DNA of 62,604 bases, filler included, from Globobulimina sp. (taxonomy: Eukaryota), in the NCBI GenBank assembly GCA_003354225.1. It is 20 parts of 20 records of this genome, joined end to end, with 100 filler letters (N's around TTAATTAATTAA, not from the genome) between each part and the next. Parts side by side here need not be neighbours in the genome. Positions count along the whole stretch, not along the records: positions 43,905 to 46,938 come from PIVH01003943.1; 19 more parts are not named here. One strand, written 5' to 3'. Positions within the stretch are counted from its first letter, which is position 1, and every line of letters starts with the position of its first letter. The notes beneath the pieces were generated by a model. It was not told the origin of the DNA. It made no database searches and saw nothing but the letters and a program-made list of their open reading frames with translations. Made by a program: the position numbers and the translations under genes. Of the stretch, positions 40,780 to 49,188 are shown one piece after another.

Positions 40780-43700
40780 TTATTTATGATAATACTTGTA
40801 ATCTAAATGAATATTTGCATCATTTTCATTTAATCCTTCAATTCCAATATATATTTTAATTTGCGTATCACCAAAAAAGAAAGCAATGGGAATATCATTC
40901 GAATCATTATTTTTATTTATCCATTCTTTTGGTAATCTAATTTTTTTGGTTGCCAATAATTTACATTTCCTGTCATCGGTAAATAATCTCATTTTTTTTT
41001 CTTCCTCCCTTTCCTCTTCAAATTCAAATAATTTTATCTCAATCACTTGCGAATCTTTGTCAATCGGTTTAAAATATTGTATCTTTGGCGGATCGTCAAT
41101 CTGTAATTCATCGCCGCAGCTCACAAATTTATAAAACACACAATCAACAAATTTATTCTTCAAATGCCCATCTAACACTATTTTATCTGCGATATATTTC
41201 TCATTTTCATATTTGTCTAACAATGATACGCCATCATCATTTTCTTCCTCATCTACCTCAACAGCGACATCTGTATCATTCCTATACGTAATATATTGAT
41301 TGTATGTATCTTCAAAATCACGTAAACTTTGTCTTATTTCTATGCCAATGGTGTTTCGCAGTATTCTCGATTTCACATAACATTGATTCTTGCAATACAA
41401 CGCAGCCCCGGTCACGACCTGTAATATCGGTCTGCGTGGAATCACAATCCGCAATTTATACTTTGATCTCATCCCAAACATATTTAACAATTTATATCCC
41501 ACATATTTGGATTCACAAAAACCTCCCGCTAACAATAAATATTTAAACTCGTGTTTGACTGACAATTTATCGATCAAATCCGAGATATGATTACAAATTG
41601 GAATTACTACGCAATCGAATAAATATTGCCATACAATGTCATGTATTTTTAAATGCTGATCCTCTAACACCAAATACCCGCATTCTACGCCAATGTTCTG
41701 ATTGGAATAATCATTGAATAATGTCTCCAGTTTTTGAACATCCACATCTTCGTCTTCCACCATTGTATTATTAATATTTTCCAACTTCTCCTCCAAAAAC
41801 TGAATGAATTCAAATGGTAATTTAACATTATGATAACTGGCCACTCCGACCTTATCATCGCAAAACGTTCCATCAAAGTTACGTTTCTGCCAAAAATTGT
41901 GCTTCGAAATTTGGAAAAAATGCAGCAATTCCACATATTTGTGAGGCTCATTGATTTTAAATTCTTTCATCCACCGTTTGGATATTATTTTGCTTAATAA
42001 ATTCACAAACTCCTCGTCAATGAATGTAGAGCCAAAGGGACCTCCCGACGGCTTATAGATTTCGCGCACATTGTATTGTGACAAGATTTCATGGCAAACC
42101 AAGTCGGCAGTCCCGCCGCCTAAATCCGCCAATATATACTTCTCGCCTCGCGCAAAGAATTTGTCTCGTTCAGAAAAAGCTGATTTCTTCACATTTGACA
42201 GTTTTTCCTTTTCCTCCATATCATAACCAGGCGTTTCTACATTTTTATTCTGCTTTTTCTTTTGTTTCGGTTTAGTTTTCTGTTTATAATCATCGTTGTC
42301 ATAGTCATCATTATCACTGTCACTGTCAAACAAATCAGGGCCAAACATCGAAGTTCCTTTGCCAAGCTTTCGCTGATTAGTAGCCGTATTATTTTTGTTT
42401 GCGATTACTTTTTTTTTAAGTGTTTGAAATCTTTGTTTCTTTTGGGTTTGGTATTCGTGCTGAATAGCAATAGAAGCACAATCTGGTTCAAATGCAATGA
42501 TCAAATGATTGGTGATGTTGGTATTAATTAAGCCCGATTTTGCAGCACAATGCATCATAATTCCTTTGCTGCGATGGGACCAAATTGCGGGTACAGTTAA
42601 TACCCATTGACAATCATCCACAGCCACATCCAAACCATTTCTATTCATTACATGCAAAGCATGCGTTTTTACAAATTTTAGTGCTTCGATGATAACCGTT
42701 TTTGAGTCGCATTTTTCTCCATTGATTGCGGTCAATTCTTCATTAATATCTTCTTTTTCGTCATCTTTTGATGAGTCAATTGCAAACAATGCCATTTTAA
42801 ATTTCTCAAAAAACAATAAATCATTTTTCTCCTCCTCCTCCTCTTCATCTTCATCATCAACCTCCAGTTTCATGTACATTTCCCGCGCTCTCTGCCCAAA
42901 TGCAACATGTCTAAAACCATTGTTTCTGTCCAATAAAATATTTGTTTTTAATTTTGTGTCAACAATTCTGTCATCGCCACCCCAGTCTGCACATAACATA
43001 AACATATCCATTAAAATATATATATACAAACAAATTAAAGAATATTCAACTAACATACCAGGACAATACACCTCGTCGTCATGCGGCAAACAGTACGAAA
43101 ATGCGGTGCCATCCGTTCCAAAGTCGATGCCACAAAAAACTTTAAATATATGATTTTGCTTTGCGTCGAGGAACAATCTCCGTGCGCGCTGTTGTATTAT
43201 TTGTGTATGTTTCACTTGTTTCGATATGGTAATTGCAGTCGATATCGAATGATAAACGGCACCAAATAATTGCTGACACGCTGTCAATTCACTCGTATTC
43301 ACAGTATATTCTATATTTGCTCCACTTTGCTTGAATACATCGATCATTTTATTCACATTCTTTGTTTTCGACGCAATGTGATATTCAATTCTTTTCTCTT
43401 TCATTGCCAATAAAATGTCTTCGTGGTCTGCATCCTTTGCATGTTTATCAGGAAACCGATCTCGTTCCTTCTTTCGGGATGAAATATATTGCTGCAATGC
43501 CTCTTGTCGACGCGTATCATTTTCAAATTGAAATATCCAGGCAAATTCCCACGAATCTCGACCAAAAATATCCGCACAAATCTCCGAATCATACTGCATA
43601 AATTCCATGAGTTGCAATCTGTTTTCCTCGATTTCGTCAAAAAAAGAATGATATTGGACACCGTGCGGAGGGTCGTCACAAATATGGAATAATACTTTGG

Positions 43701-43804
43701 TCGGTGAGCTCCATTTAAGTGATAATGAGGCATACAAACCACCCAATACATCTTCGCACCGATCACCGCCACCTCCATCGGTTTTGATTTGTTGCACGAA
43801 ACTG
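40780..43804 (-). CDS. vWA domain fused to an HSPA12-like Hsp70, 5'-truncated
   Basis: GGGDRCEDVLGGL...W...FHICDDPPHG is vWA of the VwkA alpha-kinase type. GIDFGTDG, WVLTVPAIW, FEPDCAS, DLGGGTAD, GSTFIDEEF and AGGFCES are HSPA12-like. In-frame intron at 42987..43058. Confidence 0.8.
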
Positions 43805-44198
43805 NNNNNNNNNNNNNNNNNNNNNNNNNNNNNNNNNNNNNNNNNNNNTTAATTAATTAANNNNNNNNNNNNNNNNNNNNNNNNNNNNNNNNNNNNNNNN
43901 NNNNACTAAATGTACCTTTAACGCATTTGTTACCTTATATAACGTTTTTGTCAGCCAGCAATTCATTTCTGTACAGACGCAAAGTTCTTTATTCCCAACA
44001 ACGCCTATAAAAGTAACTTTATTTTTGTTTTACTGTACTATGCAAAAACTGTGATTGTATACACAACAGAAACGAAAAACACTTTTATAATACCTAGTGA
44101 TCACAAACAGAAGCAAAAAAACAAAAATTTGTGATTATAAATAACTTACAAAACGCCACACAAAATAAACTAAGACAAAAAAACCACTCAAAATAATA

Positions 44199-45913
44199 TT
44201 AACGAGAATAAAAATTACAATTTGAGAATGTACAATTTTGAAATATCCTTTCCATCGATTCTTGATTGCCACCGTTTCCATTGCCATTGCCATTGCCACC
44301 ATCGCCATTGCCATCATTTGGCATTGATACATTAATATCGATATCCATTGATTGATTATTATTATTTCTTTGTTGATTTGCTAATTGTAATTGATTATTA
44401 TTTGATTTTTCCTCTTCTTCTTCACTTTTCTCCTCATCCTCATCCATAAAAACCACCTCATTCATAATATCTGCCGCTTTACGTTTATTTCTTATCGCAT
44501 TATCAAAATAACTCTCTGCGATTTGATCACTTTTCCAATCGCCAAACTTCTTTAATTGTAATAATGTGACCTGGACAGACAAAAAAAGTAAGTGTTTGTC
44601 AAAAAAAAGAGACTTTACATACTTCTCCTTTACAAAAATTCGATGCCGCCGTCCGCCGAATAGTATGTCCCGTATATCTCCACCAATTCGCTAATCCTAA
44701 TTCCTTTGCTATTTTCTTTGTGTTTTCACCAAAATATCCACGTCCAAGAGGTTGATAATGGTGGCGATATCGCCCCGTTTTTTTACTTTTTCTTCGTTGC
44801 CATAAAAATCTTGATCCATATCGTCCACCTTTGCGATTCCAATATTTCTTTGTAACTTTCATATATTTCAATATCCGATCCACCGATTTCTTGTTTGTTA
44901 CCATAAAATTTGTAAATTTCTTCGTCTTTGCTTTATAATAATAAAATCTTACCGCTTTCATTGACTTTGATAATGAATTCTTTTTTGATCCATGTTTTGT
45001 GGCTGTTTTTGTTTAAAAACACAAAATAAATACAAAATAAATATAAATATAACATACTATTATGATAAATGACTATTTTTTCATCATCGGATCTATGATG
45101 ATACAAATTCGTATAATCAATGGGTCTGAAACACCCATTTAATCCCACAATCAATGTAATTTTATCTGCCATAAATTCTTCATCGTCCGCATCACTTAAA
45201 AACTGCCTTATTTCTTCCGCTTTAAATACCGCTGCCTTTTTAACCGACTTTCCCTCCGCATACCGCTTCAACCATTTCCTTGCCAATGCCCATGATTCCG
45301 TATTAATGTCATACTTCGTTAATAATATTGATTTTATGCCACTATAATAAGTGTACATACTCGTATGCGCCGCGCCGATATCACTCATAGTTTCAAACCA
45401 CATCATCATCGTTGTTTCATTCAGCTCCAATTTGTATTCAATAACGAATTTATTGAATCGATTAAAATATTTTGTATATGTGCCAGCACTCGCTGTTGGC
45501 AATAAATTTGACTTTGAACGGTTGATTAATCCATTTAATGTTTGATTAATTGCTGTATCTTCATTTAATTGAATAATATTGATATTTGCATCAATATTCG
45601 ATGCGTTATGATCATCGACAGATTCTTGTTTATCTGACGATATTATTTTTGGTATATTTATATTTGAAAACAGATTAATATCTGCTTCTAATAAATTGAA
45701 TATTGCATAGTTTTGATTAATAATTTGATTTGAATTAATTGTATTATTGACTGTGTTGAGAATATATTGATTTTTGAATGATATTAATGGGAATGTCCAT
45801 GCATGAAATTGAGGAATAGACTGTGTTGACTGTAGCATATCGATGCATATAATGACTGTGATGATCAGTGTGTGAGTAGACACGACTAAGTGCGACATAA
45901 TGACATGTTGCAA
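44199..45913 (-). CDS. Tyrosine recombinase, 3 exons
   Basis: GT-AG introns 45003..45057 and 44571..44622 fuse three ORFs in frame. Catalytic set: R (NGCFR), K (KAKTK), HxxR (GHTIRRT), W (FGDWKS), Y (AESY). An N-terminal core-binding-like region is present. The start codon is uncertain. Confidence 0.88.
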
Positions 45914-46217
45914 ATTAAAGTTAGTAAAGACTTAAAACTGGTTTTTTTATCTTCTGCTTAAATCTTAAAGTCGCAAAGCACTGCAAACCTTAAACGTTGC
46001 TCAAGAAACCTGAAACTGCACAAAATCTGGATATATTACAAACGTTATTTCGGACGCTACCAATTAAAGGATATCAATTAAATTAAATTGAATACACAAA
46101 ATAGAAAAAAGAAACAAAGCATCCACACAATATTGTATTATAAAGAAAGGGATATTATTTAGTTTATTATTTAGTTTATTATAAATATACATATTATTAT
46201 TTAGTTTATTATTTAGT

Positions 46218-46694
46218 TTAATGATATTCATTATATGTCTGAATATCGGCGATATGCTGGATTTTATTCGCTGCCGCATTCGCTTTCGCCTCTTCCAACT
46301 CTCGCTTCACTTTATGATATGCCGCCGCTCGCGCAATCCTCCATTTTTTATTCACCCGATTCATGCCAGTCATCCTCACCAATTTCTCATTCAAATCAGC
46401 AATTTTCTTGGATTTGTCATCCAATGCGGCAGCTAATTCATGCGAGAAATCATCTAAATCGCAATTTAATATAAATTTTTGATCTAATTGATCAAATTTA
46501 TATTTTCTTAATCTTTCATCTAAAATTTCTTTCTCTGATTCCAATGTGCATATCTCGACATGCATGGAATAAATCTTTTCATCTTGATTTGCTAATTCGA
46601 GCTCTAAATCCACCACTTTTTCATAATCCACAAATTTTTTCTCGTCTCCACCATCTTCTTTGTCGACTGGTGCCTGTTTTTTCTGCTGGGACAT
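46218..46694 (-). CDS. Coiled-coil protein, second ORF of the YR element
   Basis: 158-aa ATG-initiated ORF rich in heptad E/L/K, co-oriented with the YR gene and inside the inverted repeats. Confidence 0.6.
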   Translation of the reverse strand: MSQQKKQAPVDKEDGGDEKKFVDYEKVVDLELELANQDEKIYSMHVEICTLESEKEILDERLRKYKFDQLDQKFILNCDLDDFSHELAAALDDKSKKIADLNEKLVRMTGMNRVNKKWRIARAAAYHKVKRELEEAKANAAANKIQHIADIQTYNEYH

Positions 46695-47038
46695 GTTTTA
46701 TGAGAGTGCTAGGAAGGAGTTTTAGTAAGGAGTTTTAGTTTAGTTTTAGACAAAAAGTTCAGAAACAACACAAAACACAAATATAAATATCATTATCATA
46801 TTATTAAAACAAGCACTTTTTGAATATTTTTTATTCTCCCATGAAACCAATCAAAAATCCGAAACCATATATTATTTGTTTTTAATATGATAATACCAAA
46901 TTCCCTATATGGTCATTATTGGGAATAAAGCATCGTATNNNNNNNNNNNNNNNNNNNNNNNNNNNNNNNNNNNNNNNNNNNNTTAATTAATTAANNNNNN
47001 NNNNNNNNNNNNNNNNNNNNNNNNNNNNNNNNNNNNNN

Positions 47039-49188
47039 AATTAGCACAAAACTTAAACAAAAACGATTTGAATGAGATAATCAATTCCATCCACACAATG
47101 TCAATCAATCCAAATGATATCGATAATAGTAATAACAGACAGGTTATTGATGAAAATATTAAGCTATCGTCAGATTTAAAATGCACATTATATCCCCATC
47201 AGACATATGGCTATCAATGGATGATAACTCGGGAAACCCATTGCTGTGATGGCCAACCGTATGGCGGTATAATTGCGGATGAAATGGGTTTGGGCAAAAC
47301 AATGCAAATGATCGCTCTCATATTATCTAAACATAATATTCCAGTTCAACTTCCACATAATAATGATTTTCAAGCATGCGACAGTACGTTAATAATATGC
47401 CCAGTCTCTGTAATGAATCATTGGGAGAATGAGATCCGAAAACACACAAAACGCGGTGTCTTAGTCATACATAGATATCACGGAAATAATCGCTGCAAAA
47501 ATATAAAAAAATTAATAGCAAATTATAATGTAATTATAACGACTTATGGTTCTGTTCAAAGTGAATGGAATGGATGGAAAAAATTAGACGATGACCGAGG
47601 GAGTAAAATCAAAGAGATTCGGAAACAAATAGTTATGCTACAAAGACCATATATGAACAGGATACATAATGAGGAGAATGTGAGCAAATTGAAGAAATTA
47701 AAAATAAAATTACAAATGTTGCTCACTAAGAAATATAAAAAACCAATTTTATCCGAGATTTGTTTTCGTCGCATTGTGTTGGATGAAGCGCATCAAATTA
47801 AAAATTATAAATCAAAAACGCATAAATCTATTTGTGATCTATCGGCAAAGTGTTATTGGTTTATGACTGCCACGCCGATACAGAATAGTTTGGATGACTT
47901 ATATGCGGCATTCCATTTTTTGAAATATAAATATTACTCCAATTATAATAACTGGAAACAAGCAATCTTGACTCATTCGAGAGGTATACAGAAAATAAGG
48001 ACACTTTTGGCGATTATTATGTTGCGCCGAATGAAAAAAGATTATATTAAAAGTGATATTGAGTCACTTGACATTGACAGAGAAGATAAGAAAGTCATAC
48101 ACTTACCGCCAAAAAAGGCGGTGACACATTTAATTGAATTTAATGAGTATGAAAGATTTATTTATAAGCAGTTGGCGACCAATATGACGAAAATATTTGC
48201 TGGTTATCAAGAAAATAATTCCGTTGGAAAGAATTTCAGTCAATGTTTAAAAATGTTGTTGCAATTAAGACAGGCTTGCAATCATTTGATATTAATAAAA
48301 AATAGTGTTTATACAATACATTCAATATTAAAAAGTGGAGAAGATGACAATAATAATATGGATATTTCACAGTTGTTATCGGTTATGAATGAAAATGATA
48401 TGAATCATAGCGACGAATATCTGACAGAGATTAAAAATGCATTAGAATCGGGGAATGATGAATGTCCATTTTGCTTAGATACGATTGAAAATGTATCAAT
48501 TACAGATTGTGGGCATCGGTTTTGCACTCAATGTATAAATCAAATTATTGAGGAAAAAGAACGGGCTTTACAGAGAAAATTAAAATCAATTTATTCGACA
48601 AATAATTTGTATATTCAATGTCCGGTTTGTCGTAAAAAATTAAAAAAATCAAATATTACACAAATAATTGATAAAAATAAACAAAAGAATGGTACACAAT
48701 TTATAGAAAATGCAAATGAATATTTATGTAAACCCTCGTCAAAGTTGCAAAAATTAATGGAAATTCTTGAAAAGATAAAAGAAGAAGAAACATCATCTAA
48801 ATGTATTATATTTAGTCAATGGACATCAATGTTAGATATTATTGAGAAAGAATTAAAATATAACAATAAATATGGAGAATACTGTCGTTTGGACGGCAAA
48901 ATGACAGCCAATCAAAGAAGTAAAAGCATCAATAAATTAAATACGGATCGAAAGTGCTGGATAATGCTTATTTCATTAAAAGCAGGTGGTGTTGGATTAA
49001 ATTTAGTTGCCGCCAATCATGTATTTTTAATGGATATTTGGTGGAATCCAGCAGTCGAAGATCAAGCAATGGACAGAGTTCATAGAATTGGACAAACCAA
49101 AAATGTTACAATGCATAGGATTGTTATTGATAATTCTGTTGAACAAAAAGTGTTAACATTACAAGATAAAAAAAGGAAAATTGCGTAA
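47039..49188 (+). CDS. Rad5/Rad16/HLTF-like SNF2 helicase with RING finger, 5'-truncated
   Basis: GGIIADEMGLGKT, LDEAH, TATPIQN, LRQACNH, RING (CPFC...CGHRFC...CPVC), FSQW, SLKAGGVGLNL and WWNPAVEDQAMDRVHRIGQ. The frame continues past TAA 49186 to 49338. Confidence 0.92.

What the first reader, a model, noticed from the sequence alone, without database searches (positions are those of the whole stretch)
43987..46930. Apparently complete two-gene, intron-containing tyrosine-recombinase element bounded by inverted repeats
Seen: three separate ORFs splice through two canonical introns into one recombinase with the full R-K-HxxR-W-Y set and no disabling lesions. A coiled-coil ORF lies upstream, and both sit between 12-bp perfect (~24-bp imperfect) inverted repeats. 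The contig ends 8 bp past the right repeat, as expected for a multi-copy element. Known: intron-containing, RT-less YR elements are Cryptons, and KKAAVFKAEEIRQFL / HTIRRTAAS / GDWKS..IAESY resemble CryptonI-type proteins from memory. Inference: a possibly active new family with an accessory gene in this protist lineage.
Basis: partly seen in the sequence, partly recalled or inferred. Interest (0 to 1): 0.8.

Follow-up and report, generated by a model that had tools for sequence, protein, structure and literature searches.

The report
Crypton-like transposon with inverted-repeat ends
A 2.9-kb jumping-gene copy in an AT-rich eukaryote carries an intron-split, Cre-like DNA recombinase and a small helical protein between short inverted repeats; it is a new variant of the known Crypton transposons, not a new kind of element.

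Summary
The window is 20 unrelated ~3-kb contigs joined by N spacers. The finding fills one of them (43905-46938). On the minus strand, three exons join through 55-nt and 52-nt GTATGT..CAG introns into a ~530-aa tyrosine recombinase (YR). It keeps every Cre catalytic position (R, D for E, K, H-x-x-R, W, Y). A contig of another sequencing run lacks exactly intron 1, and a 73%-identical metagenome relative has introns at both positions. A 158-aa two-helix orphan ORF lies upstream. The inverted repeat (12/12, then 13/21) is the only terminal one among the 20 contigs. Its left edge is supported twice: contigs of three runs break at 43988, and homology to a related copy beside host genes stops at 43987. 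The right end is untested, and no clean empty site was found. Diverged copies exist in the source run. The YR blocks match the published CryptonI alignment, not CryptonA/DUF3504. No reverse transcriptase is present. Best reading (0.7): an intact-looking Crypton-type DNA transposon of a lineage related to CryptonI, unusual in its inverted termini and second gene. Activity, the role of the second ORF and the host's identity are not shown.

The parts
43905..43988 (.). Left flank: a separate high-copy repeat, not part of the element
   Evidence: Summed contig depth is 886 in run X1, against 5-25 inside the element. Contigs of X1 (3), X4 (1) and X2 (record 9) match up to 43988 and then continue with other sequence.
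43987..44019 (+). Left inverted-repeat arm (perfect core 43987-43998); best-supported terminus
   Evidence: An X2 contig starts matching at 43988 with an unrelated flank. Homology to the related copy L009 runs up to 43987 and not convincingly beyond.
44199..44570 (-). YR exon 3: the G-x-W-K-S and A-E-S-Y catalytic part, an acidic low-complexity tail, a conserved C-terminal F-x-N-C-x-F motif, and the TAA stop
   Evidence: tblastn hits in 8 of 10 related loci.
44571..44622 (-). Intron 2 (52 nt, GTATGT..CAG, phase 0)
   Evidence: A GT..AG intron sits at the same codon boundary in L002, and the acceptor is at the same place in L009.
44623..45002 (-). YR exon 2: catalytic K and H-T-I-R-R
   Evidence: Pfam PF00589 at E 0.035. 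25 relatives at E<=0.001 among 1.84 billion representatives. Alignment to Cre through the family profile.
45003..45057 (-). Intron 1 (55 nt, GTATGT..CAG, phase 1)
   Evidence: A 486-nt contig of run X2 joins 45002 to 45058 and skips exactly these 55 nt. L002 has an intron at the same place.
45058..45898 (-). YR exon 1: non-conserved N-terminus, SAM-like N-terminal domain, and the first catalytic R (G-C-F-R-P-I-D)
   Evidence: tblastn hits in L002, L004, L001 and L008. The start codon is uncertain.
46153..46220 (.). Intergenic run of four 13-nt direct repeats directly after the coiled-coil ORF's stop
   Evidence: families D1 and D3-D6.
46218..46694 (-). ORF1: 158-aa helical (coiled-coil-like) orphan protein, function unknown
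   Evidence: No Pfam family, no homologues, and not recognised by the Atlas. Two long helices, mean pLDDT 74.9. A variant copy of 46328-46347 is present in X1.
46898..46930 (-). Right inverted-repeat arm (perfect core 46919-46930); inferred terminus, not independently confirmed
   Evidence: The contig ends 8 nt further on.

Best explanation
This is one copy, about 2.94 kb (43987-46930), of a Crypton-type DNA transposon in an AT-rich eukaryote.

It encodes a Cre-like tyrosine recombinase that is split by two spliceosomal introns. Upstream on the same strand it encodes a small all-helical protein of unknown role.

Inferred mechanism, following the Goodwin model for Cryptons:
- The recombinase cuts and rejoins DNA through a 3'-phosphotyrosine intermediate and excises the element as a circle.
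- In the circle the two 12-bp terminal arms would lie head to head and form a lox-like palindromic site.
- That site recombines with a target to reinsert the element.

Shown here:
- The gene structure.
- The complete catalytic set.
- Homology to CryptonI-like recombinases.
- Absence of a reverse transcriptase.
- Diverged copies.
- The left boundary.

Inferred only:
- The right boundary.
- The circular intermediate.
- The role of the repeats as recombinase sites.
- Any role of ORF1.
- Present-day activity.
For: Gene structure:
- Three exons give 530 codons with no stop.
- The intron 1 junction is present exactly in a contig of another run (table 5: 45002 to 45058, skips 55, ends CT..AC on the + strand).
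- Both intron positions are kept in L002, and the intron 2 acceptor is kept in L009.

Selection: against L002, dN/dS is 0.31 over 224 codons.

Enzyme identity:
- A profile of the family has Cre as its best solved match (E 5.7e-07, Cre 54-329).
- Family columns sit on Cre R173, E176, K201, H289, R292, W315 and Y324.
- The window's residues in those columns are R, D, K, H, R, W and Y.

Family placement:
- PF00589 was found in 12 of 17 relatives scanned and in 7 of 9 locus ORFs. DUF3504 was found in none.
- The CryI rows of Additional file 4 of PMC3212892 share the blocks R-F-F, Q-P-x-G, Y-T-G-H-x-F-R-R and L-K-x-H-G-G-W-K-S-x-x-V-A-E-G-Y. The CryA rows have H in place of W (comparison by eye).

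Copies:
- 60 of 74 X1 contig pieces laid on the stretch are under 99% identical. They include pieces about 80% identical over 45110-45287.
- L002 is a frameshifted relative.
- L009 is a fragment with the same terminal blocks, next to a sideroflexin gene.

Termini.

No RT: no further ORF of 40 aa or more has a family match on the contig. Both the junction at 43988 and L009's flank show that nothing follows the YR gene.
Against: - The right terminus rests on symmetry alone.
- Other copies of the left-flank repeat continue after 43988 with a sequence (AAAAGTCCTGG...) that differs from the 8 nt right of the element. This copy is therefore not a simple insertion into that repeat, or the element runs on beyond the contig.
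- Published Cryptons lack terminal inverted repeats and have 4-6-bp direct repeats (PMC3212892 passages; PMC13465315 Background). Here only a 4-nt AAAG candidate exists.
- The window's own exon translations do not reach Pfam's cut-off (14.3 bits against 27.1).
- ORF1 is absent from all 10 related loci.
- Depth figures come from assembled contigs at 80% likeness in AT-rich DNA and are not copy numbers.
- No named Crypton, DIRS or Ngaro reference could be put into a tree.
Confidence: 0.7

Rival explanations
1. Part of a larger mobile or viral element. Candidates are an endogenous virus-like element, a giant-virus or polinton-like fragment, or a DIRS-like retroelement derivative. In this reading the true ends lie beyond the 3-kb contig, and the inverted repeat is an internal or chance feature.
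For: - The contig is only 3034 bp and stops 8 nt after the right arm.
- No matching empty site was found.
- A helical ORF1 followed by a YR recalls the gag-like ORF1 of DIRS elements (from general knowledge).
- Earlier notes of this scan describe spliced YR genes with a partner gene in giant viruses (leads only).
Against: - On the YR's 3' side the element ends. There is a junction at 43988 in three runs, and L009's homology stops 12 nt before host ORFs, which include a sideroflexin gene.
- There is no RT between ORF1 and the YR or after the YR.
- Two scans of viral contigs found no relative.
- The spliceosomal introns have eukaryotic GTATGT donors.
- The YR blocks match CryptonI rows.
Confidence: 0.13
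2. A host gene pair: a domesticated or expanding Crypton-derived recombinase gene family with a neighbouring coiled-coil gene. It would no longer be mobile, and the inverted repeat would be fortuitous.
For: - The reading frame is intact, and dN/dS is 0.31 against L002.
- Cryptons have been domesticated repeatedly (PMC3212892 abstract and passages).
- A 12-nt inverted match in the terminal windows arises in 15 of 2000 shuffles.
Against: - The full catalytic set is retained, whereas domesticated DUF3504 genes often lose it (PMC13465315 abstract).
- The relative L002 is frameshifted and L009 is a truncated fragment in another context.
- Both element ends have 10- to 30-fold higher summed contig depth than the interior, as expected if short derivatives share the termini.
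- The boundary at 43987/43988 coincides with the repeat.
Confidence: 0.12
3. An assembly artefact: a chimeric contig that joins unrelated repeats.
For: - The assembly is fragmented and the runs are small.
- The left 84 nt are a different high-copy repeat.
Against: - X1 contigs of 1150 and 664 nt with 5 and 0 differences tile 44936-46720 and overlap their neighbours (table 8).
- The gene structure is colinear with L002 from another project.
Confidence: 0.03

Closest known systems
CryptonI DNA transposons of insects (Kojima and Jurka 2011, PMC3212892)
   Same: - A YR-only DNA element without RT.
- The same conserved YR blocks, including W (not H) nine residues before the catalytic Y and the Y-T-G-H-x-x-R-R box (by eye).
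- Statistical homology through CryptonI-like proteins: P0025 at E 6.6e-04 against 1.84 billion proteins, and L003 at E 5.6e-09 by tblastn.
- Low copy number of the coding form, with signs of more abundant short derivatives. The paper reports these for CryptonI-1N1_RPro.
   Different: - In a quick tree the window's YR, L002 and P0006 form a clade (SH-aLRT 98) inside a 23-row group (87). That group is separate from the 6 rows with the typical CryptonI blocks (85).
- The element is 2.94 kb, against 1.5-2.0 kb for CryptonI.
- It has two introns, a second ORF, a long acidic tail ending in F-x-N-C-x-F, and inverted termini. The paper found no terminal repeats in 50 CryptonI copies.
- The host is not shown to be an insect.
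Cre recombinase of phage P1 with loxP
   Same: - It is the best solved-structure match of the family profile, over both domains.
- All seven active-site positions are conserved, including the Cre-type W.
- If the ends join in a circle, the 12-bp arms would form an inverted pair like the 13-bp arms of loxP (inference).
   Different: - It is a eukaryotic, intron-bearing gene.
- No spacer-separated site has been demonstrated.
- Identity is only profile-level (E about 6e-07).
CryptonA / DUF3504 elements, including Glomhoppers (PMC13465315)
   Same: A eukaryotic YR DNA transposon in which introns vary between copies (abstract).
   Different: - No DUF3504 match in the window's exons, in 17 relatives or in 9 locus ORFs.
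- The CryA rows have H, not W, and a different H-x-x-R-A-T box.
DIRS/Ngaro YR retrotransposons
   Same: A YR plus an upstream helical ORF. DIRS elements have inverted terminal repeats (PMC13465315 Background).
   Different: - No RT/RNase H or methyltransferase.
- Introns are retained in the genomic copy.
- The repeats are 12-33 nt, not long ITRs with an internal complementary region.

Membership tests
Tyrosine recombinase superfamily (Cre/Int, Pfam PF00589) | Catalytic R, E/D, K, H-x-x-R, H/W and the nucleophilic Y in the canonical order and spacing | tested here: met
   The family profile aligns to Cre with columns on R173, E176, K201, H289, R292, W315 and Y324. The window has R, D, K, H, R, W and Y in those columns. 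The Cre residue numbers come from established knowledge.
Tyrosine recombinase superfamily (Cre/Int, Pfam PF00589) | Pfam PF00589 match at the gathering score | tested here: inconclusive
   Exon 2 alone scores 14.3 bits against a cut-off of 27.1. The gene is split and could only be scanned exon by exon. 5 of 9 related locus ORFs and 3 of 17 relatives pass the cut-off.
Crypton (eukaryotic YR DNA transposon, Goodwin 2003; Kojima and Jurka 2011) | Encodes a YR and no reverse transcriptase | tested here: met
   The only ORFs with signal on the contig are the three YR exons and ORF1. The element ends about 210 nt after the YR stop.
Crypton (eukaryotic YR DNA transposon, Goodwin 2003; Kojima and Jurka 2011) | Repeated in the genome, with copies in different contexts | tested here: inconclusive
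   There are diverged pieces in X1 (60 of 74 laid pieces under 99% identity) and junctions at 43988. L002 and L009 lie in other records. Contigs give no true copy number, and no genome is held.
Crypton (eukaryotic YR DNA transposon, Goodwin 2003; Kojima and Jurka 2011) | No terminal inverted repeats; 4-6-bp direct repeats at the two termini | tested here: not met
   A 12-nt perfect, 33-nt imperfect inverted repeat sits at the inferred ends. The only shared direct word is AAAG (43981-43984 and 46927-46930, read).
CryptonI group | The YR groups with CryptonI sequences | tested here: inconclusive
   Block-by-block likeness to six CryI rows, judged by eye, and homology through CryptonI-like proteins. 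In a tree without named references, the window falls in a sister group to the CryptonI-like rows.
CryptonI group | Single YR gene, no C-terminal domain, insect host | tested here: not met
   There is a second ORF and a ~100-aa tail with a conserved end motif. The host is unknown.
CryptonA / DUF3504 | Pfam DUF3504 match | tested here: not met
   No DUF3504 hit at E<=1 for the window's exons, at E<=0.01 for 17 relatives, or at E<=0.1 for 9 locus ORFs.
DIRS/Ngaro/PAT retrotransposons | RT/RNase H domain in the element | tested here: not met
Starship (captain, DUF3435) | DUF3435 recombinase and very large size with cargo | tested here: not met
   No DUF3435 hit. The element is about 2.9 kb.

The most novel reading that the evidence does not exclude
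A previously undescribed Crypton lineage, related to CryptonI but found in AT-rich microbial eukaryotes, that does use short terminal inverted repeats.

In this reading:
- In the excised circle the two 12-bp arms meet and form a lox-like palindromic recombination site.
- The helical ORF1 protein is an element-specific architectural or directionality factor.
- Short derivatives that share only the ~100-200-bp ends outnumber the coding copy 10- to 30-fold.

Inverted repeats also flank the recombinase gene in two of the related loci: L003 (16 nt, perfect) and L010 (80 nt, 91%). This hints that the 'no TIR' rule for Cryptons may not hold across this clade.
Probability: 0.3. Interest if true: 0.55.

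Novelty: new variant of a known kind. Interest (0 to 1): 0.4.

Why it matters
Cryptons are the least understood class of eukaryotic DNA transposons. Their ends are usually undefinable, and their mechanism rests on a model plus recent observations in Chlamydomonas (bioRxiv 10.1101/2022.05.23.493040, passages).

A compact, intact-looking copy with a Cre-like active site and candidate 12-bp recombinase-binding arms would give a directly testable substrate pair, recombinase plus site. It would also extend CryptonI-like recombinases beyond insects.

The find remains modest. The enzyme family and the element class are both known. The two unusual features, inverted ends and the second gene, are each supported only in part.

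Tried and rejected
Searches that gave nothing:
- Own genome: not held, so no copy count or synteny was possible.
- Other copies in the window: none by blastn or by searching for the repeat core.
- Exon 1 word-index protein search: 398 candidates, none at E<=0.01.
- Full-length relative P0001: only 3 proteins found, none named.
- The listing of cluster members: switched off, so the sources and names of relatives are unknown.
- Viral contigs: 2 scans, no relative.
- Genome contigs: 1 scan, none.
- First metagenome scan: none. The second gave 10 loci.
- Rfam on the whole window and on the contig: nothing. The left-flank repeat is therefore no known RNA gene.
- ORF1: no Pfam family, no homologue, no Atlas recognition, and no tblastn hit in 10 loci.
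- Earlier notes of this scan by place and by sequence: none.

Limits on what can be concluded:
- No RNA holder is listed among the runs. The kind of run X2 is unknown, so the intron-less contig may be a transcript or an intron-less DNA copy.
- Parts of the stretch without cover in X2-X4 are not interpreted.
- Joints with short sides (21-31 nt) were not used.
- The empty-site test failed: the continuation of the left-flank repeat was not found in the window and does not match the right flank.
- A phylogeny against named Crypton, DIRS, Tec or PLV recombinases could not be made, because no reference sequences are held in the tools.

Considered and rejected:
- A circular contig: there is no direct overlap of the ends.
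- A ciliate genetic code: both genes stop at TAA.

Not attempted:
- Complex prediction, because no binding claim is made.
Full report
CONTEXT

The window is not one locus. It is 20 contigs of 3033-3037 bp, sorted by length and joined by N44-TTAATTAATTAA-N44 spacers. The finding occupies contig 15, 43905-46938 (3034 bp, 31% GC). The neighbouring ORFs in the window are therefore not its genomic neighbours. They include a 1007-aa ORF without a Pfam family and an SNF2/RING helicase. No genome is held for the window, and no other copy lies in the window.

THE OBSERVATION

- Exon 1: 45898-45058.
- Intron 1: 45057-45003, 55 nt, GTATGT..CAG, phase 1.
- Exon 2: 45002-44623.
- Intron 2: 44622-44571, 52 nt, GTATGT..CAG, phase 0.
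- Exon 3: 44570-44199.

The product is 530 codons without a stop. Both genes end in TAA, so the standard code fits. Read-through of either intron ends or shifts the frame.

The splice junctions have outside support:
- A 486-nt contig of run X2 (another study, another organism label, run kind unknown) matches 44668-45002 and 45058-45188 and skips exactly the 55 nt of intron 1. This is either a spliced transcript or an intron-less DNA copy. Either way the junction is biological.
- Locus L002 is a metagenome contig 73% identical in DNA over 893 nt. It has GT..AG introns at the same two codon positions (57 and 58 nt).
- L009 keeps the intron 2 acceptor.
- Against L002, exon 2 is 71% and exon 3 is 55% identical in protein, and dN/dS is 0.31 over 224 codons.
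- The introns are not clearly less conserved than the exons: 41 of 55 and 31 of 52 positions match.

The start codon is only the first ATG. The first ~110 residues are low-complexity and unconserved.

THE ENZYME

The evidence that this is a tyrosine recombinase is as follows:
- Exon 2 alone gives only a weak PF00589 hit (E 0.035).
- An exhaustive phmmer search of 1.84 billion representatives found 25 relatives at E<=0.001. The best is E 1e-16 at 38% identity.
- 12 of the 17 relatives scanned carry PF00589, and none carries DUF3504.
- A profile of the family has Cre as its best solved match (E 5.7e-07, Cre residues 54-329, both domains).
- The family columns fall on Cre R173, E176, K201, H289, R292, W315 and Y324 (residue numbers from established knowledge).
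- In those columns the window has R (G-C-F-R), D, K (A-K-T), H-T-I-R-R, W (G-D-W-K-S) and Y (A-E-S-Y).

WHICH FAMILY

I read part 4 of Additional file 4 of Kojima and Jurka 2011.
- Its six CryI rows share, block for block, the family's R-F-F, Q-P-x-G, Y-T-G-H-x-F-R-R-x-x-A and L-K-x-H-G-G-W-K-S-x-x-V-A-E-G-Y segments.
- The CryA rows have H where these have W, and a different box after H-x-x-R.
- The CryS rows differ further.

This comparison is by eye. The references could not be placed in a tree.

Six of the sequences fetched here look like typical CryptonI: L003, L004, L005, P0022, P0025 and P0026. They are linked to the window by significant scores (P0025 at E 6.6e-04; L003 at E 5.6e-09).

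A quick tree of 32 rows was built. Left out were P0011, P0013 and P0024 (under 120 aa), and L007 and L009.
- The window groups with L002 and P0006 (SH-aLRT 98).
- That clade lies inside a 23-row group (87), separate from the six CryptonI-like rows (85).
- The supports are moderate and the tree holds no named references.

My reading is a lineage related to, but outside, typical CryptonI.

A short C-terminal F-x-N-C-x-F motif after an acidic tail recurs in many relatives and in the window. I found no description of it in the passages I read.

THE ENDS

The inverted repeat is real. Its arms are 43987-44019 and 46898-46930.
- The outer 12 nt are perfect.
- 13 of the next 21 nt match (P about 0.0013).
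- After that there is no similarity, and none outside the arms.
- Among the 20 window contigs only this one has a terminal inverted match of 12 nt or more; the others reach at most 9.
- 15 of 2000 shuffles reach 12. The core alone is therefore only moderately significant.

What lifts the repeat above chance is its left edge, which is supported in two independent ways:
- Contigs from X1 (3), X4 (1) and X2 match the left flank up to 43988 and then run on into other sequence. An X2 contig matches the element from 43988 with a different flank.
- L009's homology to the element is colinear (blocks at 44061-44086 and 43987-44024, with equal spacing) and stops at 43987. Beyond that point L009 carries ordinary genes, including a sideroflexin.

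The right edge has no such support. The contig ends 8 nt after it.

One result speaks against a simple picture. In other copies the left-flank repeat (43905-43988, summed depth 886 in X1) continues with AAAAGTCCTGG.... The 8 nt to the right of the element are CATCGTAT. No empty site is therefore reconstructed.

COPIES

- 74 X1 contig pieces were laid at 80% likeness or more. 14 are at least 99% identical and 60 are less.
- The less-identical pieces include pieces about 80% identical over 45110-45287 and a variant of 46328-46347 inside ORF1.
- Summed depth is 186 and 91 over 44007-44210, and 114 and 51 over 46761-46938. It is 5-25 in the interior.
- In both X1 and X2, contigs begin to match at 46837.
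- This fits short derivatives that share only the ends, as reported for CryptonI-1N1_RPro. However, these are contig depths in AT-rich DNA, not copy numbers.
- L002 has a frameshift in exon 1.
- L009 is a fragment that begins inside intron 2 and is 77% identical to L002.

Together these argue for a decaying, multi-copy family and not for a single host gene.

ORF1

The 158-aa ORF (46694-46218) has no family, no homologue and no counterpart in the 10 related loci. A single-sequence model gives two long helices (24-72 and 80-157; mean pLDDT 74.9). 'Coiled-coil-like' is therefore fair. That it belongs to the element rests only on its position between the repeats and on the variant copy in X1. Its function is unknown.

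MECHANISM

Shown: a complete Cre-type active site and an RT-less, intron-bearing element with one defined end.

Inferred, from the Goodwin model as summarised: excision as a circle and reinsertion by site-specific recombination. If the ends join, the two 12-bp arms form a 24-bp palindrome that could serve as the pair of recombinase-binding arms of a lox-like site.

This differs from published Cryptons, which have no terminal inverted repeats and carry 4-6-bp direct repeats. Here only AAAG is shared, at 43981-43984 and 46927-46930.

VERDICT

This is a new variant of a known kind. Confidence is 0.7 that it is a Crypton-type transposon copy, and about even that the two arms are its functional termini. 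Activity, expression and the host's identity remain open.

Noticed in passing
window 1-62604: The window is 20 unrelated contigs of 3033-3037 bp, sorted by size and joined by N44-TTAATTAATTAA-N44 spacers. GC ranges from 28 to 44%, so neighbouring 'genes' are not linked and the assembly may hold more than one organism.
   Followed up: partly
window 43905-43988: A separate, very high-depth repeat (summed contig depth 886 in run X1, up to 1334 at one place). It is near-identical in runs X2 and X4 and continues elsewhere with AAAAGTCCTGGAATTCC.... It has no Rfam match, and its nature is unknown.
   Followed up: partly
window 46153-46220: Four copies of a 13-nt unit (TATTATTTAGTTT), in two pairs, directly after the ORF1 stop in the ORF1-YR intergenic region.
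   Followed up: no
L003 120-135 and 2701-2716: A CryptonI-like, intron-less 386-aa YR ORF lies between a perfect 16-nt inverted repeat 2.6 kb apart, about 120-130 nt from both contig ends. This may be a second case of short inverted termini in this clade.
   Followed up: partly
L010 167-246 and 1250-1328: A more distant 313-aa YR ORF is flanked directly by an 80-nt, 91% inverted repeat. The right arm ends at the contig end. It looks like a 1.2-kb YR-only element with long inverted ends.
   Followed up: no
window 44202-44250; C-termini of P0004, P0006, P0008, P0009, P0014, P0017, P0018 and of the ORFs in L001-L005, L007-L009: A short conserved C-terminal motif, F-x-N-C-x-F or a variant, sometimes doubled, follows an acidic or basic low-complexity tail. 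Its role is unknown, and it is not mentioned in the passages of the Crypton papers that I read.
   Followed up: partly
P0001, P0015: These database proteins carry hydrophobic read-through stretches exactly where the window has intron 1. This suggests unannotated introns at the same position in further relatives.
   Followed up: no
L009 674-4149: The flank of the related element fragment has three intron-less ORFs: a Gly-rich 328-aa protein, a sideroflexin (PF03820, E 6e-84) and a 419-aa protein without a family. The context is a gene-dense eukaryotic one.
   Followed up: partly
window 40780-43803 (-) and 47041-49188 (+): On the neighbouring contigs there is a 1007-aa intron-less ORF with no Pfam family at E<=0.001, and an SNF2-family helicase with an inserted RING finger.
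   Followed up: partly
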